A DNA stretch of 64,000 nt from Mobula birostris (Eukaryota): contig NC_092393.1 in assembly GCF_030028105.1 (NCBI RefSeq), positions 52,896,125 through 52,960,124 on the forward strand, written 5' to 3'. The notes under the pieces were generated by a model that saw only the letters and a list, made by a program, of their open reading frames with translations, had not been told where the DNA came from and ran no database searches. This document shows, one piece after another, positions 2,656 to 59,957 of the stretch. Position 1 is the first letter of the stretch, and every line of letters begins with the position of its first letter. The position numbers and the translations under genes are program-made.

Positions 2656-2883
2656 CAAATCATAAACACAAGAGATTCTGTAGATGCTGGAAATCCAGAG
2701 TTACATAAAAAGGGTTGGAGGAACTCAGCAGATCAGGCAGCATCTATAGAGACAAATAAACAGTCGATGTTTCATACCGAAACTCTTCTTCAGGACTGGA
2801 AAGGAAGTGGGAAGATGTATCCATTCCTCTCCATAGATACTGTCTGACCTGCTGAGTTCCTCCAGTATTTTGTGTGTGTTTCT
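2656..2883. mobile_element. Penelope-derived hairpin element with degenerate hammerhead (2761-2798, -)
   Basis: Inverted arms ggaggaactcagcagatcaggcagcatctat / atagatactgtctgacctgctgagttcctcc; flanked by aaagtcaatgcag / aaagtcagtgcag. Confidence 0.8.
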
Positions 2884-3974
2884 AAAGTCAGTGCAGTTGC
2901 TATATGATGTAAGTTTGTTCTTAGTTACTGCTCATTGGAATAAAATCAGGCTGCAGGTGAAGAAATGTAATAATCTTTCACTAAATGAAACAATGTTAAC
3001 TCCCAAACCATAATTCTCACTATCAATGTGATAACACAATATACTTTCTTCACAGAGGTAAACCTGAAGAAAATCCATACAGATTCAGTTTTATTGAACA
3101 TATCTTCATACTGAAATGCACCATTTGCCTTTTCAACCACAACCTGAGGACATGCTGTGAGCAAGTGTCGCCACACATTCCAGCGCCAACCGGCACATGC
3201 CCACAATGTTCAGCAGAGCAACAACAAAACAGGATGACAGCAAAACGAGCCCCTTACACACGCACATGCACACAAACACCCGCCCCCACAATCTAGGACA
3301 GGCCATCACCGGCCCTTCAGTCAATCATAACCTATTAAATGAGCAATCAGAATAGGAAGAAGATTCTGTCTACCTAATCTCCTTGACTGTCGAGAAGAGG
3401 ACTGTGAAAATACATCAGACACGCTATTTTGAGAGTTTCCAGAAAAATATTTGGTTAAACTGTCAGTTAAACCCAGTCTTTTGGAGATTCAGGGTAAATC
3501 TTGAAAATGGGCACCAATTTGACAGAAGAACGGCAGCCAACAAGTCCTCAAGGGCATTATATGGTGTGGAAAGGAAATGCTGAGTGGGAATTCATGTGGG
3601 TAATGCAGCTTCTAAATTAACAACTTGGATCAAAAAGTGGATGGCACAGTTACCATCAGCTCTTTCATCGATGACTATCAAAAACGTCAATGTTAATTGT
3701 GCAGTGTTCAATTCCAGATAGTAAATTGGGCCATATGTCTGGCTGGACTCGGGGTGCTTGAGGGGGTGTGCAGCACAGCGTGGAGATACTGTGCTTTGGC
3801 TAGAAAGTGGCAAATGCCATCAAATACCATTCACTCATGGCACAGAAGTGTCTTCAAAAAGTGACAGTCTATTGGCATTCAGTGAGATTGCCACCCATTG
3901 AATACAATAGATGGTAATCTCATTGAATGCTAAGTCTCTCAACAACTATTTCCAAGTGATCAATGTTGGCAAAA

Positions 3975-4690
3975 TATAGAACAGTGTACTACAATATCTG
4001 TACTGCTTGGGAACAGGCCTTTGGCCCACAATGTCTGTGCTGACCAGGGTGCCAAATTACTCCCACTTTTCTGCACAATGCCTGTATTCCTTAATTCCCA
4101 GCTTGTTCACTTGCCTGACTAAATTCCTCTTAAAGATTGCTGCCGTACTTTGTCCATCTCCTCTGGCAGTGTGTTGCAAGCACTTGGTACTCTCTGTATA
4201 AAAGAGGAAACGTCTTATAAAGCTCCTTTAAATGTCCCCCCCCCACCTTAAAGCCCTTTAGTATTTGAAAGATCTTGTCGATCAACCTTATCTGTGCCTC
4301 ACCAGTTTTTATATACCTCCACCAGGTTGCCCTTCAGCTCCATTTGTCCAGAGAAAACAATCTGAGTTAGTCCAACCTCTCCTTAATGCTTGTACTTTTT
4401 GATCTAGGCGCCATCGTTGCCTTGCTGCTGCTTGTGCGTGGGAGGGGGAGTTGTGGGGAGGGGCCTTGGGGTTCTAACGTTTAAACTGTCATTCATTCTT
4501 TAGGGCACTCCTCTGTTTTCGTGGATGTCTGCAAAGAAAAAGAATTTCAGTATGCATATTGTATACATTTTTTGACATTAGATGCACATATTGAACCTAT
4601 CCTGGAGAACCTGTTCTGCGTCCTCTCCAAATCGTTCAAATCTTTCCCATAATGTGACTATCACAGTTGCTCCAATCAGTCCATCTCTGT
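3975..4690 (-). mobile_element. CR1 LINE 3' fragment, interrupted at about 4410-4600 by a LINE-tail element
   Basis: atagaacagt…acaggcctttggcccacaatgtctgtgctgacc CR1 tail and RT-end motifs. Confidence 0.6.
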
Positions 4691-5129
4691 AAATACTGGA
4701 TGTCAGAGTTAGGCAGTGAGTGTTGAGTAACTCATTTACTGATAATATCACCATACCCATCCTGACCCTAAATCTTCAATAGGTTTTTTTTTACAGATAT
4801 CAGCCAGAGGGTGGACAGTTGTAGCAGGAGATAGTGAATTCTTGGTTCTGTAGCACAGGGAGAGGGGGATGTAGCAGAGAGATTAAGGAGGCCCCTGCAG
4901 GGTTAGTACCAGGCAGTGAAAGTCTGCAATGGGCCCATCTGACCTGAGCCACAAACTGCAGGCTAAAGTGAACCTATGCCTGGTTACTGGCCTAGCAAAG
5001 ACTTCATAAAATTCCAGCATGGAAGGTACCTGTGAGGTAAAAGTGAAAATGCACACTGCTCAGATAAGGTTTAGAGATAATGGAGGAAAGATAGGGTAAG
5101 AAATAATTTAAGTATTATGAATACTTTGA

Positions 5130-5335
5130 ATCCGCCACATTCTCCCTCTGACCATGTGGGTTTCCTCCGGGTGCTCTGGTTTCCTCCCACAGTCCAAAGT
5201 CGTACCAGTTGGTTGTTTAATTGATCATTGTAAGTTGTCCCATGATTAGGCTATTATTAAAAAGAATCGGGGGATTGCTGTGCTGCATGGCTTAAAGGGC
5301 AGGAAGGGCCTACTCTGCAATGCATCTCAATAAAT
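5130..5335 (+). mobile_element. V-SINE (HE1-like) partial
   Basis: V-domain gtgggtttcctccgggtgctctggtttcctcccacagtccaaag. Confidence 0.75.
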
Positions 5336-6154
5336 GAATGTCTGTTTTCAGGCGGGAACTCCCCTGTTGATATCAGTTTGTAACAAAGAGAAAGTTTGTT
5401 CTGAATGCAAACCTTAGACTCTGTACATATTCTGTCTGCCTACAATGGTGGAATATTCTCTTCTGCTTGCTTGGATGACAATAGTTTTAGCAAGGCTTGA
5501 GAAGCTTGACAGAACTTGAGACAAAGCAGCCTGCTTCATTGTTACCCACTGCCCCTCCGATATGACTACACATATGCCATCGAAATGATAAAGCTCACCA
5601 AGGCTTTTTCCAAGAGTTCCTCACAAAGCTGTAGATTATAGGGCATCTTGCTTCGATATGAATCATGTTTCCTCCAATGATGCTGGGCAAACTCTTGGAA
5701 TTATTTACAGCCTTGTAGTGGTTCAGTGATATGGGTAGGAACCAGCACTTTAAGGTGGTTCATAAATATTGGTCTTGCCAACAACAAATGCAGTCTATTT
5801 ATAAATAATGAAAACTTACTGGTTTGTTACATTAGAGCAGTTTAAACCATTGCTTTCCAACTCTAGATCTGAGGTTTTCCCAGAATAGAGCATAAAACAC
5901 TATATCACAGTACAGGCCCCTTTCACCCACAAGGTGTACTGACCTTATAAACTACTCTTAAGATCAATCTATGTATGCTAATAAAAATATTCAAAGCATC
6001 CCAAAGCTCCCCATTAGTCCAAAAGAGCTTCACGTGTCAGCCCTTTGGTAGAACTATCCAATTAGTTCCACAGCTCTTCTTTTGTACTTATTCAGTTTTG
6101 TTTTCAATGTTATTGGTAAATCTATCTCCTCCACCCTTTTAAATTGTCCATTCT

Positions 6155-6665
6155 ACATTTAGTGTCCACCTTATTAGTTATACCCGTACACCTGCATGTT
6201 AATGCAAATATCCAAACAGCTAATCATGTGGCAGCAACTCAGTGCCTAACAGAATGCAGACATGGTCAAAATGTTCAGTCGTTATTCAAATCAAATGTGA
6301 TTTGACCATGGAATGATTGTTGGAGCCAGACGGGATGGTTTGAGTATATCAGAAACTGCAGATCCACTGGGATTTTCACGCACAATAGTCTCTAGAGTTT
6401 ACAGAGAATGGTGAAAGAATGAAAGAAAAATCCAGTGAGTTACAGTCTGTGGAAGAAAATGCCTTGTTAATGAGAGAGGTCAGAGGAGAATGGCCAGACT
6501 GGTTCAAGCTGACAGGAAGGTGACAGTAACTCAAATAACCATGCATTCCAACAGTGGTGTGCAAAAGAGCATCTCTCAATGCACAACACGTCAAACCTTG
6601 AAGTGGATGGGCTACAGCAGCAGAAGCCCACGAATATACACAAGGTGGTCGCTTTATTGGGTACA
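6155..6665 (+). mobile_element. Internally deleted Tc1 element with transposase HTH remnant
   Basis: ORF 6490-6687 MARLVQADRKVTVTQIT…SISQCTTRQTLKWMGYSSR is Tc1/Tc3-type DNA-binding region; TIR-like ends. Confidence 0.8.
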
Positions 6666-7882
6666 TGTATCACAGTGTTTACACTAGAGGAAAGATCCCT
6701 CCTCTTGCTTCCAACAATTTACTTATTACCTTTAAATCTATGTCTTTTGGTTATTTACTCTTCTACCACTCAGAACAACTTGTTGCTTTCAGTTTGATTT
6801 CTAACTTATGTAATTATGCTTAGATACCAGGTAATCTTTCTTTATTTTATTTATGTTATGCTTAATTCTAGGTTTCTGTCAGAGGTCCAGGTCTTGCACA
6901 AGCTCTGTTTTACATTACCTTATTCTAGAACTTTTATTCTGAAGTTTGCTTTTCGTTCCAGGTTCTCTGGTCATTTCATATCAGATGCATATCTTGCCAT
7001 CTGGCTTTCCAGAGCCTGTCTTCCAGCCACATTGATCTTGCTGTCTTTCTAGATTATACAGCTTCCAAGCTTTCAAAGGGAAATCAGTACTGACGAATGA
7101 TTTCTCTTTGACTCCTGCAACCTCCTTCATCTCTTGCCAGGAATCTGGATTGCCACCTCTTATTGAAATAATCTCAGAACCAACTTTTGCCAAGTTAAAA
7201 GTGTTATATTTATTTTGAGCCCAGGGAATTTGTCCAGTTGATTATTTGACAAGGAGAACCATACCTGAACAGTGGGGTGAATCAGAATTCGGTTTTATTA
7301 TTGCTGTCTTATGAGGTGAAATGTGTTGCTTTGCGCTAGCAATATAGTGCAAAAGAAAAATAATGAGGTGTTGTTCTTAAAACATAAAACAGTACAGCAG
7401 TTTGGCCCTTCAGCCCATGATATTGGAACTAACTTGTAACTTATTCTAAGATCAGTCTGACCTTTCATATACTTCATATACGTAACCTTTCATAGCCCTC
7501 ATATACCTATCTAAGAGTTCCTTAAGTGCCTTATGGTCTTATTGAGAATCCCAGGTGTATGGGTTGAGTGGGATCTAAGATCAGCAATGATGGAATGGTG
7601 GAGCAGACCTCGATGGGCTGAATGGCCTAATCCTGCTCCTATATCTTATGGTCCCTAATGTATTGGCCTCTACCATCACCAATCACAGGACGTTCCACAC
7701 ACCCACTACTCCCTATTGAAAAAAACATAGCCCTGACACTTTTCTCCAATCACCTTAATATGAGCCATTTCCACCCTGGGGAAAAGACGCGGGCTAAATG
7801 GGTTCATAGGTTCATAGACTCTGCAACTAAGCTTTAAAGGTCAAGAGGCTTTTTTTTTATATCAAATCATTTGGTGACTTAG

Positions 7883-8130
7883 GGGTAGTACAGTGGGTCA
7901 GCTGATAGAGCTATTGGGTCACAGCTCCAGCAACCTGGGTTCAATCTTGACCTCCGATGCTGTCTGTGTGGAGTTTGCTCATTCTCTATGTAGCCAACGG
8001 TGTTTTATATCAGTGCACTGGTTCCTCCCAAAGATATTCGCATTGGTAAGTTGGTTTTCCACTCTCCATGTGAAATTAATGTGGATGCACTATCTTCTCA
8101 TGCTCCTACATGTGGATGAGCAATAGAATC
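7883..8130 (+). mobile_element. V-SINE with tRNA head
   Basis: B-box gggttcaatc followed by gtctgtgtggagtttgc V-domain. Confidence 0.75.
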
Positions 8131-9774
8131 TGAGGTCGATGAGGGACTAGGTATACTTAAAGTGGAGTTATTAGGTTCTTGATTTGTAAGGGTGTCAAAT
8201 ATTACGGGGAGAAGGCAGGAGAGTAGGGTTGAGGGGGACAAAGAATCAGCCGTGATGGAATGATAGAGCAAGCACTTTGGGCAAATGGCCTAATTCTGCT
8301 TCTACAGTTTGTATTATGATTCTATGGACTGTAGGGAGAGTAAAATAGAATTAGCATAGGATTAGTGTATGTAAATATTAAATAGCCTGGACTTGGTGAT
8401 TCAAACAGCCTGATTCTTTGCTGAGTTATTCTATCTATCCTTTTTCCAAGACAGCAGTGTGATAATGTGCTAATAATCTGCTTAGAAATACTGACCAGGT
8501 TTGTAATTGAACTGATTGACATGAATGCTATTTGCAAGATTCTTTTAATGACGCACAATATACAGATTCCTGTATGAGGCTGGATTAATAAGAGTTAACT
8601 GATGGTTATGCAGTCCCTTTGACTGGTATTGCAATTAACTATCAAGATCCTAGGAGCAGCAAGGGAATGGCAGTCCACACGAGCAATGCATTTAATATCC
8701 ATCTCCATTTCAGCTTCATTCTGTCTTCCTGATTTTACCATAATTTTGACTGTTGTGGACTTGAATTTCAAGTGCAGTTTGGGGGAAATGGGCAGATTCC
8801 CTATTTCTGATCACCTTTGACTCTTGCTGGAATGCATGCATTTGTAGAATCATGGAATGATAGCTTCTTAGAAAAGAGGCAATTTGACTCAATTTGCCCA
8901 TGCTGTCTCAATTAGTGACACAGTGGTGTCATGGTTAGCATAACACTATTACTGCGCCAGAGTCTCGAGTTCAACGCTGCCGCTCACTCTTCATCTTTTA
9001 TTGGTGCTGTTTTACATATTTATATGACTGCTTGTTTTAGTATAATAATGCCAGTAACATTATACTGTCTTACATAAACATGCAGCTCGTACTTTTTGTC
9101 AACCTGACAAACTTCACACCATGTCACTCAGGGACCTGTGCTAATATTTATTCTGTGACTGTATGTGCTGGATTGTAACGATATGTGCTGTGTGTGACTC
9201 GATATTGTGTTTGGCAAATTCTTTCCAGAGGAACGATGTTTCATTTAGCTGTATGCTGCGGTTGACTGGCCATAAGCTTGAACTTAAATTCATAGCGAGG
9301 GCTGGGGAAATACAGATTGTCCAATAAGGGGAAGCCGGAGATTTCTGAATGGCTCATGAACTGTACTTCAATATTCATTTTACTGCATTTTGCTGTAATT
9401 TACTGTAATTTTATGTCCTTGCACTGTAAGTCAGTATCCATAATGGAGCTGACTGATGTTCTTTTCAATTTCCTCTACCTTCAACAAGATTCCGCCACCA
9501 AAGCAGTGATTTTGATCCACGGCTGATGGAGCCCTTGACTGTACCTTGGTGCATCTCTGTCCTGAAACCCTCTCCTATACAGAACAAGGAGTGGATTCTC
9601 ACTTCGGCCAAATAGCCTAATCTGCTGACATCTCAGTATTTGAATTTTTAGATTTTCTTTCATAGTAATTTATGGAAATTTTATGTCCTGGCACTATAAT
9701 TTTATGTCCTGGTTGTAATACTCATTTATGTGAACTATCAGTTGCAATCTGAATTCCTTTAAAAAGCACTGTAT

Positions 9775-12110: not shown

Positions 12111-12139
12111 GAAACTGTGTCGCTGTATTTTTTTAAAAT

Positions 12140-14185: not shown

Positions 14186-14454
14186 ATGCCATCCATGTGA
14201 AAATAAAACAGCAAAGTAAAGTCATGAAGCATTCTCAACTTGTATTTAAAACATTGAACTTTTGGTGATCTTAATGTTGATTTGCAATAGGTTTCAGCAT
14301 TAAACATGTGTTCTTTCAACTTGACGCCACAATTCTGAACCGTGCAAAACAATGTGCTCTAAACCCTGAAGATCCAGTGTCAATAAGCCTTAGCCAAATA
14401 ATGGCAATCCACTGGAATTTAAAGGTCAAAGTATATTTATTATCAAAGTACATA

Positions 14455-22330: not shown

Positions 22331-22334
22331 CCAT

Positions 22335-23861: not shown

Positions 23862-23902
23862 ATAGACGCAAGGTTCTGCAGATGCTGGAAATCTAGAACA
23901 AG

Positions 23903-23933
<31 letters not shown>

Positions 23934-23945
23934 GCTGGAACAACT
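23862..23945. mobile_element. Penelope pLTR fragment with (CA)n microsatellite
   Basis: ttctgcagatgctggaaatctagaac…(ac)n…aatgctgga. Confidence 0.6.
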
Positions 23946-24198
23946 TTCCAGTGTGAAGGACACATTTCACTGTATGTTACAGTGCAGTGAATCTGAGTTT
24001 TTTTTGCCTATGTAAATAAACTCACTCTTTTTGAAGTAAATTGACTTTGTAACAGACTGCTGTGAATCTCACCCCTTTCTCCACCTTCAACTCATGGCTG
24101 CTGCCATTGAAACGCTTTCACTTACCTCACAAGCAATCCCTTGGTGATGTGCACCAAATTTATTTTCCCTATAAATGGTGCAATATCTCAGATGAGTA

Positions 24199-24425
24199 AA
24201 TGCAGGAGATTCTGCAGATGCTGGAAAATCCAGAGCAACACACATAAAATGCTGGAGAAACTTAGCAGGTCAGGCAGCATCTCTGGAAGGGAATAAATGG
24301 TCGACATTTTGGGCCGAGCTCGTTCATCAGGACTTGATGAAGTTTCTCAGCCTGAAACGTCGACTGTTTATTCCTTTCTATACATACTGCTTGAGCTGCT
24401 GAGTTCCTCCAGCATTTTTCGTGTG
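24199..24425. mobile_element. Penelope-derived hairpin element with two opposed hammerhead motifs
   Basis: Perfect 15-bp TSD tatctcagatgagta (24184-24198, 24426-24440); inverted arms. Confidence 0.9.
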
Positions 24426-24785
24426 TATCTCAGATGAGTATTTGTTTTGGTCATCTTACTGTAAAATGCTAGCAAACCTATTTATAATTGAATCTTAATA
24501 TCTATTCCTAAATGGTTGTTTGTTAGTGTGTAATTTTAATACATTGAGCTGCAGCACCCACAGCCATTAAATCCTTCACAGCACAGGAATTGTTGCAGCT
24601 TCATTATCAATTGTTTGCCTGCTGAATAATTAATATATATCCTACAGCATCAAAATAATTATGTGTTCTTAGTGCTGCGAGTGATGTATTAGGTCAGAAT
24701 CTGTGTCATTACTGGGTTAGGAAAGAATTGGCTCTAAGCACTCAACTAATGAGTTCCATAAAAGTGTAAAATAAAGGTATCGACG

Positions 24786-24868
24786 ATGTATAGAAAGGAA
24801 TAAACAGTCGACGTTTCAGGCTGAGAAACTTCATCAAGTCCTGATGAACGAGCTCGGCCCAAAATGTC
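24786..24868 (-). repeat. Perfect 83-bp inverted copy of 24303-24385
   Basis: Exact reverse complement by direct comparison. Confidence 0.92.
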
Positions 24869-31603: not shown

Positions 31604-32490
31604 CGCAAACACGAGGAAATCTGCAGATGCTGGAATTTCAAGCAACACACACAAAGGTTGCTGGTGAACGCAGCAGGCCAGGCAGCATCTCTAGGAGAAG
31701 GTACAGTCGACGTTTCAGTCCGAGACCCTTCGCCAGGACTAACTGAAAGAAGAGCTAGTAAGAGATTTGAAAGTGGGAGGGGGAGATCCAAAATGATAGG
31801 AGAAGACAGGAGGGGGAGGGATGGAGCCAAGAGCTGGACAGGTGATTGGCAAAAGGGATATGAGAGGATCATGGGACAGGAGGCCCAGGGAGAAAGAAAG
31901 GGGGGGGATCCCAGAGGATGGGCAAGGGGTATAGTGAGAGGGACAGAGGGAGAAAAAGGAGAGAGAGAAAAAGACTGTGTGTATATAAGTAAATAACGGA
32001 TGGGGTACGAGGGGGAGGTGGGGCATTAGCGGAAGTTTGAGAAGTGAATGTTCATGCCATCAGGTTGGAGGCTACCCAGACGGAATATAAGGTGTTGTTC
32101 CTCCAACCTGAGTGTGGCTTCATCTTTACAGTAGAGGAGGCCGTAGATAGACATATTGGAATAGGATGTGGAATTGAAGTGTGTGGCTACTGGGAGATCT
32201 TGCTTTCTCTGGCGGACAGAGCATAGGTGTTCAGCGAAACGATCTCTATCCCATGATCCCCTCATATCCCTTTTGCCAATCAACTGTCCAGCTCTTGGTT
32301 TCATCCCTCCCCCTCCTGTCTTCTCCTATCATTTTGGATCTCCCCCTCCCCCTCCCACTTTCAAATCTCTTACTAGCTCTTCCTTCAGTTAGTCCTGACG
32401 AAGGGTCTCAGCCCGAAATGTCAACTGTACGTCTTCCTAGAGATGCTGCCTGGCCTGCTGCGTTCAGCAGCAACTTTTATGTGTGTTGCT
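31604..32490 (-). mobile_element. Penelope-like retroelement: GIY-YIG endonuclease C-terminus plus inverted pLTRs with hammerhead motifs
   Basis: ORF 32026-32304 RFAEHLCSVRQRKQDLPVATHFNS…RLEEQHLIFRLGSLQPDGMNI; ~240-bp inverted arms; perfect 14-bp TSD tgtcatttgcaaga (31590-31603, 32491-32504). Confidence 0.93.
32391..32427 (+). ncRNA. Minimal type I hammerhead ribozyme motif (best-preserved sense-strand copy)
   Basis: AGTC-CTGACGA-A-GGG tctcag CCC-GAAA-T-GTC-AACT: core CUGANGA/GAAA, stem II, GUC site, stem I with one mismatch. Confidence 0.7.
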
Positions 32491-36429: not shown

Positions 36430-38640
36430 ACTAGGCCTGTTTACAGAAACCCTGCCCATTTATCACCAGTATGCAACCTGTTGCACCAGAAGTTCCAGCA
36501 CCCTGGATCACTGCTACTCTACGACCACGTGTTGGCAAATTGGATCATTTGGCTGTGTTCCTGTTACCTACATGCAGACAGAGCCTAAAGAAGGCGGCTC
36601 CAGAGATCAAGACAACTAAGAGGTGGTCATGGGAGGTTACAGGATTGCCTTGAGTCAGCGGACTGGGCCGAGTTCAAGAACTCATCTGAGGACCTGAATA
36701 ACTACACCAGAGTCATTACAGACTTCATCTAGACCTGTGTGGATGAGTATGTCCCCATAAAATCGTTCAGGGTTTTCCCCAGTCAAAAGCCCTTTTTGAA
36801 CAATGAAATCTAGAACCTGCTGAGAGCCAGATCAGAGGCATTCAAGTCTGGAGATCAAGAATACTACAGGAGGTGTAGGTATGATCTCTGGAAAGCCATC
36901 TCTTGGGCAAAGTGGAGATCCCTGACTAGACTGGAATCAACAGGGGATATTTGACAGCTGTGGCAGGGTTTGAATGCCGAAACTACCTACAAAGCTAAAT
37001 CTTGCGACATAGGGGCAGCAGACCTTCACTTCCAGATGAGCTGAATGCCTTCTGTGCTCGCTTTGATCACCAGACCAGGTAGGAACCGTCGTGCATCCCC
37101 ATGTCTCAGTATCTGAACATGACATGCAGACTGCCTTCAAGAGAGTGTATCCAAGGAAAGCATCCACTCTAGAAAGAGTAGCTGGCTGAGTACTGAAGGC
37201 CCCCTGTGCCAACTGGCTAGTTAGTGTATTCATGGATTTCTTCAAACTCTTGCTCTGGCAGTGTGTGATACCCATCTGCTTCAAGCAGGCTTCTGTCATA
37301 CCGATGCCCAAAAAGAGCGTGGTAACCTGTCTAAATGACTATTGCCCAGTGGCACTTACATCCACAGTGATGGTGCTCTGAGAAGCTGGTGTTGAAGCAT
37401 TTCAGCTCTTGCCTGAATGGTGACATGTATCTGCTCCAATTCACATACCAAAGCGACAGGTCTGGAGCAGATGCTATCTTGTTGGCTCTTCACACAACCC
37501 TGGAACATCTGGACAGCAAAGGAGCATACATCAGGATGCTCTACATCAATTACAGCTCGGCATTTAACACCGTGTGCAATTGGATCCTGGATTTCCTCAC
37601 TATATTCCAGTCAGTTTGGATTGGCAAAAACATCTCCTGCACAATCTCCATCAGCACGGGAGCACTGCAGGGTTGTGTACTTCACCTCCTGGTCTACTCC
37701 CTTTACACCTGTGACTGTGTGGCTAAGTACAGCTCTAACACAATCTATATGTTTGCTGATGACACCACTGTTGTGGGCTGTATCAAAGGTAGTGATGAAT
37801 CAGCACACAGGAGGGAGAATGAAAACCTGGCTGAATGGTCAAACTTCACACTCATTGTGAATAAGACCAAGGAACTGATTGTAGACTTCTGGAGAGGGAA
37901 ACCAAAGGTCCATGTGCCAGTAATCACCAGAGGATCAGAGATGGAGAGAGGCAGTAACTTGAAATTCCTGGGTGTCACTATTTCAGAGGACCTGTCCTGG
38001 ACCCATCGTGTAAATATTATTGTGAAGAAAGCACAACAGCACCTCTACTTCCTGAGGAGTCTGGGGAGATTTGACAAGTCACCGAAAACCTTGGCAAACC
38101 TCTGTCGATGCGTGGTGGAAAGTGATCTGACTGGCTGCATTGCAGCCTGGTATGGGTACACCAGTGCCTTTGAGCGGAAAATCCTACCAAAGGTAGTGGA
38201 TTCAGCTCAGTACATCATGGGTAAAACCCTCCCAACCATTGAGTGCATCTACATGAAATGTCGCCATAGAAAAGCAGCATCAATCATCAAAGATCCTCAC
38301 CACCCAGGCCATGCTCTTTTCTGCTGCTGCCATCAGATAGAAGGTACAAGTGCCTCTGGACTTGCACCACCAGGTTCAAGAACAGTTACTACCCCTCAAC
38401 CATCAGGCTCTTGAACAAAAGGGATACTGCACTCATCTAAGGACTTCCTTGTTTCATTCTTGTTATTTAATTCTCTTCATTTTTATCTGCATTTACACAA
38501 TTTGTTTACAGTTAACAGTTCCTGTTGTTTACATTTTACATTTACTGTTCTATAGAATTGCTAAGTTTGGCCCACAAAAACAGAATCTCAGAGTCATGTG
38601 GTGACGTATATGTATCTGATAATTAATTTTACTTTGAACA
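36430..38640 (+). mobile_element. Rex1/Babar LINE (RT pseudogene; longest ORF in window, 37389-38414)
   Basis: NYSSAFNT, GALQGCVL, MFADDTTVVG, NKTKELIVDF, KFLGVTISEDLSW; stops upstream; actttgaac tail. Confidence 0.93.
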
Positions 38641-40355: not shown

Positions 40356-41619
40356 TACTCAGTGGCCACTTTATTAGGTACACTTGTACACCTGCTCGTT
40401 AACACATATATCTACTCAGCCAATTGTGTTCAAGGTTCAAGTTTAAAATACATTTGTTATCTAAAGCATGTATACTATCTACAACATTGAGATTCATCTC
40501 CTTAGAGGCAGCCACAAAACAAAGAAATCCTATAGAGCCCATTTTTTAAATAGGCTGTCAAACACCCAGTGTGCAGTACTGCGCTCAGTTCTGGTCACCT
40601 CACTACAGGAAGGATGTGGAAGTCATAGGGTGCAGAGGAGATTTACAAGGATGTTGCCTGGATCGGGGAGCATGCCTTATGAGAATAGGTTGAGTGAACT
40701 TGGCCTTTTTGCCTTGGAGTGGCGGAGGATGAGAGGTGAGCTGATAGAGGTGTATAAGATGATGAGAGGCATTGATTGAAATGGCTAACACGAGAGGGCA
40801 CAGTTTTAAGGTGCCTGGAAGTAGGTACAAAGGAGATGTCAGGGGTAAGTTTTTTTACACAGAGAGTGGTGAGTGCGTGGAATGGGCTGCCGGCGACGGT
40901 GGTGGAGGCGGATACAATAGGGTCATTTAAGAGACTCCTGGATAGGTACATGGAGCTTAGAAAAATAGAGGGTTATTGGGTAACCCTAAAGCAAGTACAT
41001 GTTCGGCCCAGCATTGTGGGCCAAAGGGCCTGCATTGTGCTGTAGATTTTCTGTGTTTCTATTAAAAAAACAAATTGTGCAAATAACAAAAGCAAGCAAA
41101 CAATTGAAGTTTACAAAATGAGTACACAGCCACAAAGCCAGTCATCATGGGGCATTTACTCAATGCAGAAAAGCATGTCAAGAGGTTCTTCAGGACAGAC
41201 GTTAGAATGGGGAAGAAAGATAATCTAAGTGACTTTTACCGTGGAATGATTATTGGTGACAGATGGGATGGTTTGAGTATCTCAGAAACTGCTGACCTCT
41301 TGAGATATTCAAGGACAGTAGTCTCCAGAGTTTACAGAAAATAGTGCGAGAAACAAAAAAAAAAAATCCAGTGAGCTGCAATTCTGTGGGTGAAAATGCT
41401 TTGTTAATAAAGGAGGTCAGTGGGGAATGGCTAGCCAGGTCCAAGCTGCCAGGAAGGTGACAGGAACTGAAATAACCATGTATTCCACAGTGGTGTGCAG
41501 AAGACCATCTCTGAATGCTCAACATGTCGAATCTTGAACAGTTGCAAAAGAGCATGAAAATCCACTGAGTAGGCGCTTTATTAGGTAGAGCCGGTTCCTA
41601 TTAAAGTGGCCACTGAGTG
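40356..41619 (+). mobile_element. Tc1 deletion derivative containing two nested insertions
   Basis: TIRs actcagtggccactttattagg / cctattaaagtggccactgagtg-TA. Confidence 0.85.
40577..41062 (+). mobile_element. CR1 3' fragment (innermost nested layer)
   Basis: RVQRRFTRMLPG…YENRLSELGLFALEWRRMRGELIEVYKMM; tail tgtgtttctat. Confidence 0.9.
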
Positions 41620-42024
41620 TATAAATGAAATGGTTCAGGGCTGAACGGACAACATCCGGATTGAATTGCTACTCTGCGCTCTTGTTATCGGTGCCCTCTG
41701 GTAGCAGGGGCTGTACTGGCTATGATCTTTTGCACAGCCTGGGAAGAATTGGCCAGTGGTGCCACATTTGCAGTCCAGACACAAACGCAGCAGTGTTCCC
41801 TCATGTAAATAGCTGAACATAATTAGATTAAACTTGGCTGTTAATGGCCTTTGTAGGCAAAAAAAAACTTGATAATGCATTTTCTATTTCTAAAGGTCAA
41901 GTTCTACTTTAAAAGGTCAAGTTCTGACTGTTAATTGTTTTTATTTATTCATTCATGGAGTGTTTGCTTTGTTGGCAATGCCAGAATTTAAAGCCCATCT
42001 CACATTGTCCTTGAACTGAATGGT

Positions 42025-43829: not shown

Positions 43830-44590
43830 GCAGTTCAAAGTTTAAAGTAAGTTTATTATCAAGTTGTGTTACAACCCTGAGATTTATTTTCTTGCAGCAT
43901 TCAAAGTTGAAGTAAAATTTGTTATCAGAGTACATACATGTCACTACGTACAACCCTGAAATAGTTAGCAAACAGTAACCGTAAACATCAGGAACGAGCA
44001 TGAAATAACAATATAACAGAGTCCTTAAATGAGAGTAGTTATCCCATTTTGTTCAAGAGCCTGATGGTTGAGGACTGGTAACTATTCTTGAATTTGGTAG
44101 TGTGAGTCCTGAGGCACCTGTACCTTCTACCTGATGGCAGCAGCAAGGAAAGAGCATGGCCTGGGTGGTGAGGATCTCTGAAGATGGATGCTGCTTTTCT
44201 ATGGCAGCATTTTATGTAGATGTGCTCAGTGGTTGGGAGGGCTTCACCTGTGATGTATAGGGCTGAATCCACTACCTTTTACCGGATTTTCTGCTCAAAA
44301 GCTTTGGTGTTGCCATACCAGGCCAAAATGCAGCCAGTCAGCACACTTTCACCACACATCTATAGAAGTTTGCTAAGGTTTTCAATGACATGCCTAACCT
44401 CCACAAACTCCTGAGAAAGTAGAGGCACTGTTGTGCTTTCTTCGCAATAATATTTATATGATGGGTCCAGGACAGGTCCTCTGAGATAGTGGCACCCAGG
44501 AATTTAAAATTACTGACCCTCTCCAACTCCAATCCTCTGATGATTACTGGCTCATGGACCTCTGGTTTCTCTCTCCTGAAGTCTATAGTC
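43830..44590 (-). mobile_element. Rex1/Babar 3' fragment
   Basis: ORFs 44338-44655 and 44039-44272 similar to the C-terminus of 37389-38414. Confidence 0.88.
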
Positions 44591-45354
44591 AGTAGCTGGG
44601 CTTCAGTTTCCCTTTCCGTCCGTCCTTTGAACAGCAGGGTCAGTGTTATGATCAAAGTTACCGGTAGATTGTGATGATGTGGTCAAAATTATACATTAGT
44701 TTTGTGGCCTTTGGAGCATCAAGTTCAGTTGCAGCCTAAGTGGGGAACATTTATTTCTGAACATTTCTCATCAGCTGAAGTGAGTGCTTACTATACTCTT
44801 CCATTTTGCAGTTAATTCATTTAATCCTCAATGCTCAATCATAAAACTAAAGATAGAAATCCTATATTTAGCACAGTGTTGCAGTGATAGGCAAAAGGAC
44901 ACAACTCCACCAAATAATTCTGCAGAAAATGAGTGGTTAATGACAGTGCAGATTTGCCAAAAATCATATGCTGATAGTTCAGGTGTTGTTTTGTTGTAAT
45001 CTTTGTTCCAGGTAAGATGGCCTTTTGGGATTTGTGTTCCAGTTACACCCTATATAAAGTCATTTGAAAGTCGCACTTGGTCTGCTTTTGAAATATAAAT
45101 TTACTTTATCATTATCAGGAAACACAAATTTTATCTGATAATGCTAACTCTGTCACCCTTGTAAATTTTGAAATAATATGTTCTGAAGCCCAATGTCAGT
45201 AAGGATTTACCTGGAGCTCATCTCTTGATAGTATAAGGAGATAATTTTACTTTTTGCCCCTGGCTTTCCAGTTTCTTCAACATCACAATCATTGCTGTCT
45301 GATCTTCTGTGGCTTAGTTGCTTTCTACGCCATCTCCAACTTCCTCATACCATC

Positions 45355-45710: not shown

Positions 45711-45937
45711 GCGCTTTGTTCTATCTTCAGGATGACTGTTTTTCCACTATCTTGACACAGGGCACCAATATTTGAAAAATGAAAAGGATTAGTCCCACTG
45801 TGCACGTCTGCATTGTAATAATTATTGAAAAAAATGCAGGTGAAACCCAAGCCTTCTATTTAGTATCAAAACATGAAATTAAAAAAAAAACTCTGCTAAT
45901 ATTAAACCTAAGCAGCTATTGATTTTAACCATGTTAC

Positions 45938-46220
45938 AGACGCAAAACGCTGGAGAAACTCGGCAGGTCAGGCAGTGCCAGGAAAGGGGAAGAAGCCCGA
46001 ATAAGCAAGTGGGGGTGGGGGGAAGGAGTACATGCTGGAAGGTGATCAGTGAAGCCAGGTGTGGGTGGAGGAGGGTGGAATGAAGTGAGAAGGTGGCAGG
46101 TGATAGATGGAAAAGGTAAAGGGCTGAAGATTGAATCTGTTATGAGAGTGAATCATGGCAGAAAGGAAAGGAGGAGGGGCATTTTGGATTTTCCTCATCC
46201 GTAGAATCTCTTGTGTTTAT
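45938..46220. mobile_element. Penelope pLTR fragment (related fragment 53965-54275)
   Basis: aaaacgctggagaaactcggcaggtcaggcag plus purine-rich arm as in 31750-31960. Confidence 0.65.
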
Positions 46221-47014: not shown

Positions 47015-47048
<34 letters not shown>

Positions 47049-47470: not shown

Positions 47471-47542
47471 ATGTGCAGATCCCTGAGAGGCAGCAGTGAG
47501 AATTGAACCTAATCTTACAGCAAAGCGTTGTGCTAACTACTA

Positions 47543-47827
47543 TCACGAGAAAATCTGCGGATGCTGGAAATCCAAAGCCACACACACACACACACACACA
47601 CACAGTGCTGGAGGAACTCTGCAGCCAGGCAGTATCCGTGGAAAAAAGTAAACAGTTGATGTTTTGGGCCAAAACCCTTCATCAGGACTTCCCCCTAAAT
47701 TCTTAATCTGAATTCTTCTCCCTTTCTTTCTAGTCCCGATGACGGGGTCGGCCCGAAACATTGACTGTTTACTCTTTCCCATAGATGCTGCCCGGCTTGC
47801 TGAGTTCCTCCAGCATTCTGTGTTGTG
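47543..47827. mobile_element. Penelope-derived hairpin element, hammerhead motifs at 47653-47689 (-) and 47732-47767 (+)
   Basis: Inverted arms; imperfect TSD gtgctaactacta / gtgctgaccacta. Confidence 0.85.
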
Positions 47828-48069
47828 GTGCTGACCACTACATCCCCATGCAGCCCTGTTGGTGAATAACTCTCTGCTAAGGAGGAAAAGTTGTCAACTG
47901 CATTATAGAATCCTCCTTCACTAAATCACCCTTCCTTGACCATGGGTGTCACAGTGGGTAGTGATGTTATCTCACAGCTCCATTGATCCAAATTGAATCC
48001 TGACCTCTGGTGTTAATTTGAATTTGTACATTCTCCATATGATTCTGAGTTTCCTCCCAAGAAAACATT

Positions 48070-53611: not shown

Positions 53612-53895
53612 GGCATGGCAGTGTGGTTTACAGCGCATTAGTTGTAAGACTGGGGTTCAATTCCCACTGCTCTCTGTAAGGAGTTTGTATGTTCTCACCT
53701 TGACTTTGTGGGTTCCCCCCACATTCCAATGACATACAGTATCATTAGGCTGAGTGAGTGTGGGCATGCTGTGTTAGCTCCAGAAACATGGTAATACCTG
53801 CAGGCTGCCCAGCCCAGTCCTTGCTGATTTGATTTGATGTCAACAGCGCATTTACTGTAAGTTTTGATGTAGATGTGACAAATAAAGCTAATCTT
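53612..53895 (+). mobile_element. V-SINE-type tRNA SINE
   Basis: ggggttcaattccc B-box; ctgtaaggagtttgtatgttctc. Confidence 0.75.
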
Positions 53896-55459
53896 CAATA
53901 TTTTCATCTTGGACCATTTAAAGAGAAACTTTATCATAGCTAAGGAAATAACTAACCTCAATTTACTATGAAAGATGTGAAAGGTGAAGCAAGGTGAGGT
54001 AGAAGTTTAGTAGATGGGGGAAGGGAGGGATAAAGTAAGAAGTTGGGAGGTGATAGGTGGAAAAGTTAAAGGGCTGAAGAAGAATGAGCCTATTAGGAGA
54101 GGAAAGTGGACCTTGGGAGAAAGGGAAAGAGAATGGGCACCAGAGGGAGGTGATGGACAAGCATTCACTATTTATTCCTCTTCATCAATGCTGCCTGACC
54201 TGCTTAGTTCCTCCAGCCATTTGTGTGTGTGTGTGTTGATCTGGATTTCCAGCATCTGCAGAATCTCATATGTTGACAAACTTGGCAGGTAGTGCTGACC
54301 AGATGCCTGTATATTCCTTTTCCACATATCTAACAGGGAGGAAAAAAAAACAGAATGAAAGAGCAAAGTACAGCAGAACATTGCTGTGCATTAAGAAAAG
54401 GAAATATGGCAGTGCAGATGCTGGCTTCCTTTATTGAAGCCCCTCAGTATTTTAGGAGCAACTTCTTCCCCTCCGCCATCAGATTTCTGAATTGACAGTG
54501 AACCAACACCTGAACACTACCTCCCTATTTTAACTCTTCTTGCATTTTTAATTTATTGTTTATCTATATTTCTTATTGTACTTTATAGTTATTATGTATT
54601 GCATTTACTGCTGACACAAAACTACAAATTTCATGACATAAGTCAGTGATATTAAATGTGATTCTAATTCTGACAACTCTATTGACCATAATTGCAGTGT
54701 ACATACAATAGATTTTAAAATCAGTGTAGAGGCAATCTTTTTCCTCTTACAAGAGAAATCAATATTGTTTCTGTGGAATCGTGTTCTTATCAACTAGATA
54801 ATGTTTACTGATGGGCAGAACATGGGATGTTTTAAGTACAGGGGCAATTTGTGTTTTTTTTCTCATTTTATCACATGTTTCAATTGAGCTTCATGCTGCC
54901 ATTATTGTAGTTATGTGCTTGCTAATGCAAGTTTTAATAGTAGCTTATTCTAGTCATCTCTAATGTATAAATATTGCGATTCGTGATACAGAAAAAATGG
55001 ACTAATTCTTACTATGTCAGAAATTGCATTTACTGTACATTTAAATTTAGTGTTACAAGCTAGATTTATAGAAGCAAAGTTAAATTCAAAAATTAGCTAT
55101 TTACATCAAATGAGTCAGGAGTGAAATGAATGTAGATATGCCAGCAATTCTTTTTTAAATTAGTTTTAAGTATCTCAAAGGTTCAGTATGTCAAAGACTG
55201 ATTTGCATTGTTAATTAGAGGAGAAAGTGCAGATGAGAGCACCCTGGTCATTGTCCCTCAGTTGGACTCACTTTCTTTACCAACTATCTTCATTTCATAT
55301 CAATCAAGGCAACTATTCAAGATGCAAGATTGTTTATTATCATTTCCTGTACACAAGTGTAAAAGGAACAGAATAATTCTTACTCCAGATCCGATGCAGC
55401 TCAAAAAAAGGACACAAAAGATACTTCCTACAAAGCGAAACTGAACGTCATGAATGGCG

Positions 55460-56175: not shown

Positions 56176-56599
56176 TCTACTTCATGCTCTGACCAATCAA
56201 GAATCTATCAATCTCTGCCTTAAATTTATTTAAAGGCTTGGCCTCCACAGCTGCCTGTGGCAAAGGATTGCGCAGATTCACCACTCTGGCTGAAAAAAAT
56301 TCCTCCTCGTCGCCGCTCTAAAAGGACACCCCTCTATTCTGGGGCTGTATCCTCTGCTGTTAAACTCTCTCACCATAGGAAATGTCCGCTCCCCATTAAC
56401 TCCATCAAGCGTGGAAGTGAAGCCTTTTTACTTAATGTCTTGAATTTTGCCTTGCAAGAACATTTTTCAGAACAGATACAATTTCTTAGTTCACTTTGTT
56501 CATTTCAGTTTTCGTAGCTGGCCTATTATAACAAATTAACTGGAATTTTGGACTGCTCAGCACTTTTCCAATAAAATAGAATAGCTAATAATATAACTA

Positions 56600-56803
56600 A
56601 GACAACACACACAAAATGATGGAGGAACTCAGCAGCCGGGCAGCAGCATCTGTGGAAAAGTGTAAACAGGACTGGTGAAGGGTCTCAGCCTAAAACATTG
56701 ACTGTTTACTCTTCTCCATAGACCCTCCTGACCTGCTGAGTTCCTCCAGCATTTTATGTGTGTTATTCTGAAATTCCAGCATCTGCACAATCTCTCGTGT
56801 TTA
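56600..56803. mobile_element. Penelope-derived hairpin element about 90 bp upstream of the RPTOR acceptor
   Basis: ggaggaactcagcag / ctgctgagttcctcc inverted arms; degenerate hammerhead ctggtgaagggtctcagcctaaaacattgactg. Confidence 0.8.
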
Positions 56804-56892
56804 CAGTTAGTGCCAGCTAATATTTTGATCTTTGCTGCGTGAATTTGTCACCGTATTAAAATGTGACTCCTTTTCTGACTATTTCCATGCAG

Positions 56893-56996
56893 GCTACAGT
56901 TAATGCCCGACCACAGCGCATCCTGGACTCCACAAACCTTACCCAGTCAGCACCAGCCAGCCCTACCAGTAAGGGAGCACTCATTCATCAAGTTGG
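56893..56996 (+). CDS. RPTOR: Next Raptor coding exon (104 bp): ATVNARPQRILDSTNLTQSAPASPTSKGALIHQV(G)
   Basis: Continues the previous exon in phase 0 and matches recalled Raptor ATVNARPQRVLDTSSLTQSAPASPTNKG; acceptor ctgactatttccatgcAG, donor GG|GTAAGT. Confidence 0.96.
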
Positions 56997-57974
56997 GTAA
57001 GTTATCGAGTTGGGGTGAGTAACTCTTTGAGATAATACATTCTCACAACGGTTTGTATATGCCAGGGCATTTTGTATTTAGTTTATTCCAGAGTTTGCAA
57101 CCAAAGTAATTTTGCCCATGGGTAGATGAGTATTCATATTGAGATACACCGAAAATTTTGTCCCTTCCTATAGTCTAAGAAAGGTCTGATTTTTCAGAGG
57201 TTTGTAGTGTGTTTTAAGTCTTGGTATCCAGTCCCATTCACATATTTCCAGTGGCATGTCTGTTTCCAGGTATATACAAATGTTATGAGTCGCAATTAAA
57301 GTAGCAGTAGTAACATTTTGCAAAAATGAGTTTCTAACTTTCCAGTTTGGTTGCTGTTGCCTGAAATGTCTGTCAGTCTAAGTTACATCTGTTTATAGAT
57401 ATTTCAGTTTCTCTCTCTTCCAGGTCAATGCCATTTACCCCACCCCAATTCTGCCTCGTCCCATCATTGCTACCTGTTCTGTGAGGCTGATAAGGTTTTG
57501 TCCATGCTTTCTCACTTAGACCATAAGACAGGGGAGCAGAGGTGTGCCATTCGGCCCATCGAGCCTGCTCCACCGTTCCATCGTGGCTGATTTATTATCC
57601 CCCTCAACCCCATTCATCTGCCTTCTTCCCATCACCTTTGATGCCCTTGCTAATCAAGAACCTGTCAGCCACCGTTTTAAATATACTCTCTGGTCAATTC
57701 TCCACCCTCTTGTTACAGAAATACCACATTGCTGTTCTAAGGGGACTTTACCATATCTGTTGGTTTCTTCCTATCTTTTTGCACAGTGTGGAGTGCCAGC
57801 CACTGCATCTTCATATTTCTCCTCCATCTTGCATCCTAAGCTGTTCCTCATACCGCAGCATACCCATTCCCTGCTCCTACCATATTTAAACCACAGCCTA
57901 ATGTCTTTCATTTGGCCTCTTGTCCCTCTGTTATTTTCATTGGTGCAAGGAAGATGGCACAGAGGCACAGGAGC

Positions 57975-59312
57975 ATTGTCATAGCAAAGCAGCATCCTTC
58001 ATCAAAACCCTCACCATCCAGGCAGTGTCCTCTTCACACTGCTGCCATCAGGATGGAGGTACAGGAGCCTTGGGTCCCACATCACCAGGTTCAGGAACTA
58101 TCAGCTTTCAACTATCAGGCTCCTGAACCTGTATCAATAACTTTGCTCACCCCAACACTGAGCTCCCATCTGAGCCCATCTACAAGGAGTGCTGCCACAA
58201 GAAAGCAACATCATCATCAGGGCCCCCAGCATCCAACCCGTACTCTCCTCTCATTGCTGCCATCACACCAAGTTCAGGAACAGTTACTACCATCAAGCTC
58301 TCGAAACAACATCAGTAACTTCACTTGCCTCATCACTGAACTGATTCTGCAGTCTACAGACTCACAAGGACTCTATAACACATGTTCTCAGTATTTTATT
58401 ATTTATTATTATTATTAATACTATTTGTTTTTCTTTTTGTATTTGCACAGTTTGTCTTCATTTGCACATTGGTTGTATGTCAGTCTTTGAGCGTAAACTT
58501 TCATTGATTCTGTGTTGTATCTTTGTTCTGTGAATGCTTGCAAGGAAATGAATCTCAGGATTATATATGGTAACATACATGCTTCGATAAAATTCTTTGA
58601 GCTTTGTGTGGGCAGCACAGAAACAGGGATATGTCAAGCCTTTTCACTTCACCGCTCCACACTATGTCAAATCCGACCTGGAAAATAGGAAACAAAATGG
58701 ATGGAGAAAGGATAGTTGTAAGAGAAACTTTGAAGCTCAGTCAGTAAGCACTTGATTGACTGAGGCTTTCTATTTTCCATGGACCACACACCAGCAGATC
58801 CACTTCTGTACAGTGTGGATTGTTGTACTTGGCAATGCTGGTCATTGAGCATATCTACACAGAGCGCTGACGCAGGAAAGCCGGTCCCCCGCCAGCCAGG
58901 TCATGCTCTCTTTTCTCTGCAGCCACAGGAAGAAGGTACAGGAGTCTCAGGACCCACATCACCTGGTTCAGGAACTGTTATTAACCCTCAACCGTCAGCC
59001 TCTTGAACCAGTGGGGATAACTCTACGTAATTTCACTCTCCCCATCACTGAGCTGTACCCACAACATATGGACTCATTTTCAAGTACTCTTTATCTCATG
59101 CTCTTGGTTTTTATTACTTATTTATTTATTATTATTGTTTCTTTTTCTTTCTTTTCAAATTGCACAGTTTGCTGTCCGTCCTATTGGGCGTGATCGTTCA
59201 CTGATTGTATTGTTTCCTTGATTTACTGGATATGCCCGCAAGAAAAATGAATCTCAGGGTTGAATATCGTGACATATATGTACTTTGATAATAAATTTAC
59301 TTTGAACTTTGA
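57975..59312 (+). mobile_element. Cluster of Rex1/Babar 3' fragments (57975-58605, 58835-59312)
   Basis: Repeated caccaggttcaggaac…tcaggctcctgaacc and aatgaatctcagg…actttgaactttg tails. Confidence 0.75.
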
Positions 59313-59764
59313 ATCGAGAATCTGTGTTGAGAGCAAAAATGAGAACTTCCTACTTCTGTCTAAATTCAGTAGCTGTTCAGTATCTGATGAACTAAAACTT
59401 TTCTAAGGAGTACTGTTTTCCTTTTACATTAATTCTGGTCTGATTCTAAGCATATGAAAAATTAGTTGGCTAAGCCAAATAGTTTTATTAATCTGGCACC
59501 ATGTGGGCAGAATGACTGATAGTAAAATAAAGTAAATGAATGCTTTATTAATTTAATTTAATTGCAGCCATAGGGCATATTTCATTTTAAGAGCAAATAT
59601 GGCAGTCCCTATCCTATAGTCGGGGTGCCCCATTATTAATAAGTGCTGAAATCGTTTCTTTATAAAGTCCTTACTTCAGGTGAAAATTGTGCAATTAGGA
59701 CAGATTATTTTCATTATATTGTGCAGTTTGTAAGAACAGATGGGTGGGTTCAAATAGGTACAAA

Positions 59765-59957
59765 CTATTCTTCAGACGCTGGAAATCCAGAACAACACAC
59801 GCAAAATGCTGGAGGAACTCAGCAAGCCAAGCAGCATGTATGGAAAAGAATAAAGAATCAATGTTTTGGGCCAAGTTTTGGCCCGAAACATCGACACTTT
59901 ATTCATCTCCATTCATACTTCCTGACCTGTTGAGTTCCTCCAGTATTTTGCGTTTGA
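59765..59957. mobile_element. Degenerate Penelope-derived hairpin element
   Basis: aaaatgctggaggaactcagca / tgttgagttcctccagtatttt arms; ggcccgaaacatcgac remnant. Confidence 0.75.

What the first reader, a model, noticed from the sequence alone, without database searches (positions are those of the whole stretch)
2656..59957. Family of ~200-290 bp non-coding fold-back elements built from opposed hammerhead-bearing arms
Seen: at least five short palindromic copies (2656-2883, 24199-24425, 47543-47827, 56600-56803, 59765-59957), three with recognisable 13-15 bp TSDs. Aligning their motifs by eye gives CAGTC-CTGATGA-A-GGG TCTCGG CCC-GAAACGTC-GACTG: complementary stem I, intact catalytic core, GUC site, palindromic ACGT stem III and one extra A after A9. 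They look like MITEs but have long variable TSDs and no transposase-type TIRs. The fold-back centre differs in each copy, suggesting each forms during Penelope insertion (truncation plus inversion) rather than amplifying as a unit. The alternative is a retrozyme-like non-autonomous family. Either way the genome would be densely seeded with ribozyme relics (about one per 10 kb here).
Basis: partly seen in the sequence, partly recalled or inferred. Interest (0 to 1): 0.7.

Follow-up and report, generated by a model that had tools for sequence, protein, structure and literature searches.

The report
Head-to-head stubs of Penelope retrotransposon
These short mirror-image inserts are real, but they are broken, back-to-back ends of a very common Penelope-type jumping gene in a layout already described, and their one-long-arm, one-short-arm shape likely records copying started on both cut DNA strands at once.

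Summary
The five fold-backs and three TSDs (13, 15, 13 bp) are real. Each arm is the 3' end (pseudo-LTR) of an EN+ Penelope-like element of Neptune/Nematis type (RT + GIY-YIG ORF, partial tandems). A sixth, 0.9-kb fold-back in the window carries the endonuclease end, and a 3.6-kb one elsewhere carries RT in both arms. The motif is a PLE minimal hammerhead, but none of the ten arms holds it intact; four lack the CUGANGA box. In 1.45 Mb sampled: 329 arms and 54 fold-backs (about 150,000 genome-wide). All 60 mapped junctions differ, arm lengths are independent, and either arm may be longer. That rules out a MITE or retrozyme and argues against simple snap-back; two cDNAs joined head-to-head fit best (inferred). 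Breakpoints peak at the front edge of the ribozyme with excess untemplated G, possibly the capped RNA start; no cleavage-site peak is shown. The layout is published, and this scan reported the same family many times elsewhere in this genome.

The parts
2656..2883 (.). Fold-back a: tailed pLTR arm on - (from about -18), tailless arm on + (from +40), 7-nt junction insert; older subfamily O
2643..2655 (+). Left TSD of a (13 bp; right copy 2884-2896, 1 mismatch)
24199..24425 (.). Fold-back b: tailed arm on - (from about 0), tailless arm on + (from +5)
24184..24198 (+). Left TSD of b (15 bp exact; right copy 24426-24440)
24786..24868 (-). 100% identical inverted 83-nt copy of the centre of b (24303-24385), a later DNA-level duplication or assembly artefact
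47543..47827 (.). Fold-back c: tailed arm on - (from 0, expanded CA run), tailless arm on + (from -42)
47530..47542 (+). Left TSD of c (13 bp, 2 mismatches; right copy 47828-47840)
56600..56803 (.). Fold-back d: tailless arm on - (from +34), tailed arm on + (from +4); no adjacent TSD found
59765..59957 (.). Fold-back e: tailed arm on - (from +16), tailless arm on + (from +19); neither arm reaches CUGANGA
31604..32490 (.). Sixth, longer fold-back (young subfamily Y): tailed arm on - reaching into the ORF, tailless arm on + from -145; exact 14-bp TSD 31590-31603/32491-32504
32029..32244 (-). C-terminal 72 codons of the PLE GIY-YIG endonuclease (85% to the L079 domain; too short for a Pfam hit alone)
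23870..23946 (-). Solo short tailed arm
45929..45979 (-). Solo partial tailless arm
54159..54271 (+). Tailed arm starting near +25
61115..61202 (-). Old degenerate arm

Best explanation
The fold-backs are dead, doubly 5'-truncated, head-to-head copies of the pseudo-LTR of a Neptune/Nematis-type Penelope-like retrotransposon, each likely made afresh when two cDNAs primed from opposite strands of one staggered cut are joined at their truncated ends. Shown: arm identity, parent element, one-sided tail, variable TSD, unique junctions, neutral decay of the hammerhead. Inferred: (1) the GIY-YIG nicks both strands about 10-17 nt apart; (2) each 3'-OH primes RT at one of two adjacent internal start sites (about +132 with tail, about +102 without); (3) the cDNAs stop independently, most often in or at the front edge of the hammerhead; (4) end-joining, with short overlaps or filler, seals the centre. 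More tentative: many short arms are run-off copies ending at a capped RNA 5' end at position 0/+1. The ribozyme is a passenger from the master element; in a fold-back it faces its own antisense and would be trapped in a long hairpin.
For: Arms map to the 3' end of elements with an RVT_1 + C-terminal GIY-YIG ORF (L159, 638 aa open). All three arm subfamilies are preceded by the GIY-YIG end. In L214, L226 and L228 the ORF end, UTR, hammerhead and tail run straight into the next ORF. Fold-backs range from ~70 bp to 3.6 kb, the largest with RT in both arms (L078). 53 of 58 closely adjacent arm pairs are head-to-head. 40 of 45 scorable fold-backs pair a tailed with a tailless arm (p=4e-8 against 0.5; 9 of 54 unscorable). 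Both arms are of one subfamily in 47 of 48 assignable cases (chance 0.55), and young partner arms are closer to each other than to other arms (p=0.011; older subfamily p=0.13). TSD score >=10 in 19 of 48 versus 0.3% of mismatched flank pairs; lengths 8-17, mode 14. 60 of 60 junction pairs are distinct, near-duplicates 14 versus 12.8 expected, Spearman rho 0.002; tailed arm longer in 23, tailless longer in 23, within 5 nt in 14. In vitro, Poseidon protein cuts and extends both strands and starts RT at two adjacent sites that bound the tail (PMC11167929, main text read). Young-arm 5' ends: 22 of 110 at -4..+4, versus 5 in -24..-5 and 22 in +5..+31 (p=1e-7 and 3e-4); G precedes the start in 16 of 34 arms at 0/+1 versus 46 of 224 elsewhere (p=0.0014).
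Against: Steps 1-4 are read from end products only, and the in vitro data come from a Poseidon, not a Neptune-type, element. Two thirds of arms (221 of 329) are not in close fold-backs, so the two-arm product is not obligatory or many partners are long or decayed. 38 of 60 junctions have 1-30 unaligned bases and only 16 overlap; I ran no chance control for microhomology. Some junctions are perfect palindromes (L257, L276), which suits self-priming. The RNA-start idea was tested after reading earlier notes; A-to-G decay may explain part of the G excess at +1; and 6 of 9 near-full-length copies with an upstream pLTR extend upstream of position 0, so 0 is no hard limit. Junction ends in the older subfamily are uncertain by several bases.
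Confidence: 0.78

Rival explanations
1. Same parent element, but the second arm arises by self-priming: one cDNA (or an antisense template, as proposed for Adineta PLEs) folds back at a short palindrome and is copied onto itself.
For: Palindromes at inverted PLE junctions were read as self-priming in PMC3846280 (passages). Palindromic or overlapping centres occur here (L240 14-nt overlap, L257, L276; 16 of 60 overlap by 1-14 nt). Partner arms share subfamily.
Against: Snap-back of a tailed cDNA requires the tailless arm to lie within the tailed arm. The tailless arm is longer by >5 nt in 23 of 60, as often as the reverse, including window copy c (0 versus -42). Arm lengths are uncorrelated. 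Only 14 of 60 are near-symmetric.
Confidence: 0.13
2. Hammerhead self-cleavage makes the RNA 5' end, and cDNAs run off at the GUC site (+31/+32), so the fold-back centre records ribozyme activity.
For: 8 of 424 arms start at +32 versus 0-1 at +30, +31, +33 and +34. L217 shows repeated restarts at +36.
Against: Equal or larger peaks lie at +19 (10) and +24 (11), also CpG guanines with no cleavage site, so CpG decay can explain +32. The main peak is at -1..+1 (45 of 424). Many arms pass through the site. Hammerhead mutants did not affect insertion in vitro (PMC11167929).
Confidence: 0.05
3. A non-autonomous element (MITE-like or retrozyme-like) that amplifies as a fold-back unit using its two ribozymes.
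For: High copy number and a narrow size mode (median 190 bp; 51 of 54 are <=330 bp). Animal retrozymes derive from PLE pLTRs (bioRxiv 10.64898/2026.07.22.740005, abstract, introduction and passages).
Against: No shared junction in 60. TSD length varies. The ends are asymmetric. Same-strand tandems are 2 of 58 close pairs. Only 4 of 54 fold-backs keep one intact motif and 1 keeps two. The core is not spared relative to flanks once subfamily-variable sites are removed (79 versus 84.8 expected; 19 versus 20).
Confidence: 0.03

Closest known systems
Complex insertions of EN+ Penelope-like elements (PMC8557442 Fig. 2 legend and text; PMC3846280 Pen2a_Av; PMC2377424 Fig. 1C; passages read)
   Same: Partial-tandem pLTR, adjacent inverted 5'-truncated copy, 30-40 bp tail at one end only, variable short TSD, head-to-head junctions.
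   Different: Here both arms are usually cut down to ~100-130 nt with no ORF, in about 1.5x10^5 copies; TSDs are longer (mode 14 versus 8-10 in Adineta).
Minimal type I hammerheads of metazoan PLEs (PMC4209133, results and discussion read)
   Same: Extra nucleotide between 9 and 10.1, palindromic 15.2-16.2, no real helix III, located in the pLTR. That paper already notes dual motifs 100-700 bp apart on opposite strands in Schistosoma and thousands of solo motifs in vertebrates.
   Different: Helix II is short (3-4 bp). Many young copies have G10.1-U11.1. An estimated 66,000 intact motifs here versus 4,000-9,000 in coelacanth and Xenopus (different descriptors).
Poseidon element PAc in vitro (PMC11167929, main text read)
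   Same: Two adjacent internal RT start sites in an AC-rich region downstream of the hammerhead; both strands cut and extended.
   Different: Different clade (no linker Zn finger in Penelope/Poseidon per PMC8557442). In the text I read, that work does not analyse head-to-head products or tail pairing.
Non-LTR retrozymes (bioRxiv 10.64898/2026.07.22.740005)
   Same: PLE pLTR-derived, non-coding, type I hammerhead.
   Different: Retrozymes are head-to-tail tandems with intact motifs; these are inverted, unique at each locus and mostly dead.
LINE-1 twin priming (recalled; search listing only)
   Same: Two primers from opposite strands, inversion inside a TSD.
   Different: L1 inverts a different, non-overlapping part of the RNA; here the same 3' segment is copied twice.

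Membership tests
EN+ Penelope-like element (parent) | Single ORF with RT and C-terminal GIY-YIG | tested here: met
   L159 638-aa open frame: RVT_1 E=7e-5 (below the gathering score), GIY-YIG E=3e-5 (above it)
EN+ Penelope-like element (parent) | Pseudo-LTR formed by partial tandem | tested here: met
   L214, L226, L228: ORF end, UTR, hammerhead and tail continue into the next ORF
EN+ Penelope-like element (parent) | 30-40 bp tail, often at one end only | tested here: met
   3' ends peak at +102 and +131/132; 40 of 45 fold-backs have it on one arm
EN+ Penelope-like element (parent) | Inverted 5'-truncated copy and variable TSD | tested here: met
Neptune/Nematis clades | CX2-5CxxC linker before a CCHH-type GIY-YIG | tested here: met
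Neptune/Nematis clades | RT phylogeny placing it in Neptune rather than Nematis | not tested
   No reference PLE proteins were fetched
PLE minimal hammerhead (master element) | Core boxes, extra nt after A9, palindromic 15.2-16.2, stems I and II | tested here: met
   24 descriptor hits in 1.45 Mb, all inside arms, 0 in each of 3 shuffles
PLE minimal hammerhead (master element) | G10.1-C11.1 pair | tested here: inconclusive
   G-C in subfamilies O and X; G-U in many young Y copies
PLE minimal hammerhead (the five window copies) | Intact core and stems in the copy | tested here: not met
   0 of 10 arms
PLE minimal hammerhead | Self-cleavage at GUC | not testable with these tools
   Monomer minimum-energy fold is a rod, not the hammerhead fold; only contig data were available
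MITE | Unit amplification with a shared centre, fixed TSD, symmetric terminal repeats | tested here: not met
   60 of 60 junctions distinct; TSD 8-17; one-sided tail
Non-LTR retrozyme | Head-to-tail tandem units each with a complete hammerhead | tested here: not met
   2 of 58 close pairs are same-strand; 1 of 54 fold-backs has two intact motifs, on opposite strands
Non-LTR retrozyme | Circular RNA intermediates | not testable with these tools
   No raw-read RNA run was listed

The most novel reading that the evidence does not exclude
The stubs are a genome-scale record of PLE integration. One RNP dimer primes both target strands, obligately using the tailed start on one and the tailless start on the other, on the 5'-proximal pLTR of an RNA whose capped first base is the first base of hammerhead stem I. 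The short fold-backs are run-off products of that 100-130-nt leader, and the ribozyme sits at the extreme 5' end where it would decap the transcript.
Probability: 0.35. Interest if true: 0.55.

Novelty: new member of a known kind. Interest (0 to 1): 0.27.

Why it matters
As an element it is ordinary: a known PLE insertion form that repeat annotators could mislabel as a MITE or microRNA hairpin (its best Rfam hits are chance miRNA models). Its value is as data. How PLE inverted ends and tails form is described as undefined in PMC8557442, and about 150,000 minimal products allow counts that discriminate models: strict tailed/tailless pairing, independent arm lengths, and a breakpoint peak at the ribozyme's front edge. 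The same family and similar readings were already reported from many other windows of this genome.

Tried and rejected
Rfam: no hammerhead family hit in the window or in four young near-full-length copies; only sub-threshold miRNA-type hairpin hits in the window. Cleavage-site breakpoint peak: not separable from CpG-decay peaks. Intron idea: a pyrimidine tract + AG ends exactly at +1 in all three subfamilies, echoing the D. virilis intron end at helix I (PMC4209133). But no ORF-to-hammerhead spliced joint was found in any fetched locus, 24 solo arms starting at -2..+3 share no upstream exon, and no GT..AG joint is among the listed joints in relatives' contigs (one search's list was cut). Unsupported, not excluded. 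Expression: no RNA holder listed; runs are contigs of guessed type, so no inference. Core conservation: apparently significant in the older subfamily with all flank sites (79 versus 115.7), but gone after removing subfamily-variable sites (79 versus 84.8) and absent in young copies. Covariation across families was not tested: the descriptor found no second hammerhead family in the sample. Two tail-only genome searches returned nothing because common words are skipped. The automatic end-mapping over-extended at least two arms (L232, L235); I used BLAST and the stricter local alignment instead. The protein atlas look-up gave no result. Literature searches for a cartilaginous-fish description (0 papers; none relevant among 10 listed) and for short fold-backs or a start-site peak found nothing beyond the papers cited. 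Repbase/Dfam and subscription journals were not searched, and supplements of PMC4209133 and PMC11167929, which may list such motifs, were not read.
Full report
Observation. The five palindromic inserts are at the stated places, and the two I folded are far more stable than shuffles (z -13.7 and -12.5). Three have TSDs abutting the stated ends (13, 15 and 13 bp); the other two have none that is convincing. The window holds 17 arms, not 10, including a sixth fold-back at 31604-32490 with an exact 14-bp TSD. The motif as written is a reconstruction: it occurs nowhere in the window intact. Four of the ten arms begin downstream of CUGANGA, five carry a core substitution, and one has the core but broken stems.

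What the arms are. The long arm of the sixth fold-back runs into 72 open codons matching a GIY-YIG C-terminus. [quoted passage not shown] In L214, L226 and L228 the end of one ORF, the 3' UTR, the hammerhead and a further 30 nt run directly into the next ORF: a classical pseudo-LTR, with the extra 30 nt being the PLE tail. Three arm subfamilies (O, older, holding the five copies; Y, young; X) all have the GIY-YIG end about 270-300 nt upstream. Fold-backs scale continuously up to L078, 3.6 kb with RT in both arms and the tail on one. The host is probably a cartilaginous fish; that rests on recalled resemblance and earlier notes and was not tested.

Genome-scale counts. In 145 evenly picked 10-kb stretches (1.45 Mb) there are 329 arms (227/Mb, 196-260) and 54 close fold-backs (37/Mb, 26-49), extrapolating to about 9x10^5 arms and 1.5x10^5 fold-backs. 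Of 58 arm pairs within 30 nt, 53 are head-to-head. Arm 3' ends peak at +102 and +131/132. Of the 54 fold-backs, 40 pair a tailed with a tailless arm, 3 have no tail, 2 have two, and 9 cannot be scored. Among 48 fold-backs with usable flanks (43 sampled plus 5 from the window), 19 have a direct repeat scoring >=10 versus 0.3% of mismatched flank pairs; lengths run 8-17 with mode 14. Both arms share a subfamily in 47 of 48 assignable cases (6 unassigned dropped; chance 0.55).

Unit amplification or fresh formation. I mapped 60 tailed/tailless fold-backs (window, random sample and loci chosen on the tail alone). All 60 junction pairs differ, near-duplicates (14) match the permutation expectation (12.8), and the two arm lengths are uncorrelated. 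So there is no master fold-back: MITE and retrozyme models fail. The tailed arm is longer in 23, the tailless in 23, and 14 are within 5 nt. Self-priming of one tailed cDNA, close to the explanation offered in PMC3846280 (passages), requires the second arm to lie inside the first and cannot give the 23 reverse cases. Two independently truncated cDNAs can. That fits PMC11167929 (main text), where Poseidon protein nicks and extends both strands and starts RT at two adjacent internal sites bounding the tail. The joining step is inferred: 16 junctions overlap by 1-14 nt, 6 are blunt and 38 have 1-30 unaligned bases, with no chance control run.

The ribozyme. A type I minimal-hammerhead descriptor finds 24 motifs in 1.45 Mb, all within arms, and none in three shuffles; the features match those listed in PMC4209133 (results and discussion read). 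Only 4 of 54 fold-backs keep one intact motif and 1 keeps two. Within copies, CpG positions decay fastest (about 0.42 in O), including G12. The non-CpG core mutates at the base-matched flank rate once subfamily-variable sites are removed (79 versus 84.8; 19 versus 20), although with those sites kept the older subfamily looks conserved (79 versus 115.7). The core is nearly constant across the three subfamily models while nearby flanks differ, as expected if selection acted on master elements only. In a fold-back transcript the motif pairs with its own antisense, so cleavage is unlikely (inference).

Why the stubs are about 200 bp. In 30 young tailed arms chosen on positions +66..+132 only (one is the window's own), 13 start within +1..+40 and none within +41..+66. 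Earlier notes of this scan suggested the front edge of the ribozyme marks the RNA start, so I tested it afterwards. Of 110 young arms, 22 start at -4..+4 versus 5 in -24..-5, and an untemplated G precedes 16 of 34 starts at 0/+1 versus 46 of 224 elsewhere (p=0.0014), as a reverse-transcribed cap would give (recalled from LINE work). The site also fits a recalled initiator consensus in O and Y, and the Penelope start site lies in the pLTR (PMC2377424 and PMC8557442 passages). Against it: 6 of 9 near-full-length copies carry pLTR sequence upstream of 0, A-to-G decay can mimic part of the signal, and no RNA ends could be examined. A peak at the cleavage site (+32, 8 of 424) is matched by peaks at +19 and +24, also CpG sites, so cleavage is not shown.

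Comparison and verdict. Inverted truncated pLTR, one-sided tail and variable TSD are published for PLEs (PMC8557442, PMC3846280, PMC2377424), and opposite-strand dual minimal hammerheads were noted in Schistosoma (PMC4209133). My searches found no paper quantifying such ORF-less stubs or the tail pairing, within the limits of the library; supplements and repeat databases were not seen. The scan's own index lists 198 matching notes in this genome, with the same basic reading in the 8 shown (none near this window). Verdict: real, a new member of a known kind, mostly dead relics; modest interest as a large dataset for PLE integration mechanics.

Noticed in passing
window 24786-24868 (inverted copy of 24303-24385): An 83-nt stretch is a 100% identical inverted copy of the junction region of fold-back b, private mutations included, 400 bp away; the element's own arms differ by ~24%, so this is a much later templated duplication or an assembly artefact.
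   Followed up: partly
L217:745-798: A 5' piece of a tRNA (Rfam tRNA 28.4 bits, E=0.017; GUC anticodon, so Asp-like) sits at the centre of an inverted PLE junction, followed by three stuttered restarts at about +36; suggests RT template jumping at the junction.
   Followed up: partly
window 32386-32392 and the same position in all three subfamilies: A pyrimidine tract ending in AG lies exactly at hammerhead stem I, with a branch-point-like motif upstream in the young subfamily (recalled consensus); it resembles the D. virilis intron end, but no spliced form was found.
   Followed up: partly
window 37371-38423 and 44030-44600: LINE RT fragment (RVT_1 plus ALKBH8_N hit) with an 84%-complementary inverted partner about 6 kb away.
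   Followed up: no
window 3872-3933 and 41558-41624: Two short near-perfect hairpins unrelated to the PLE arm (chance miRNA-model hits).
   Followed up: no
L170:5526-5949 and L171:5260-5681: The PLE ORF has an in-frame ~210-nt Pro/Ser-rich tandem duplication upstream of RT, with variable copy number among copies.
   Followed up: no
L225:358-924 (reverse-complement coordinates): A PLE fold-back is inserted in an integrase-like frame of an LTR-type element (label from recalled motifs; observed only).
   Followed up: no
young subfamily, stem II: Most of the youngest copies read CCT instead of CCC before GAAA, turning the usually conserved G10.1-C11.1 pair into G-U in the master element.
   Followed up: no
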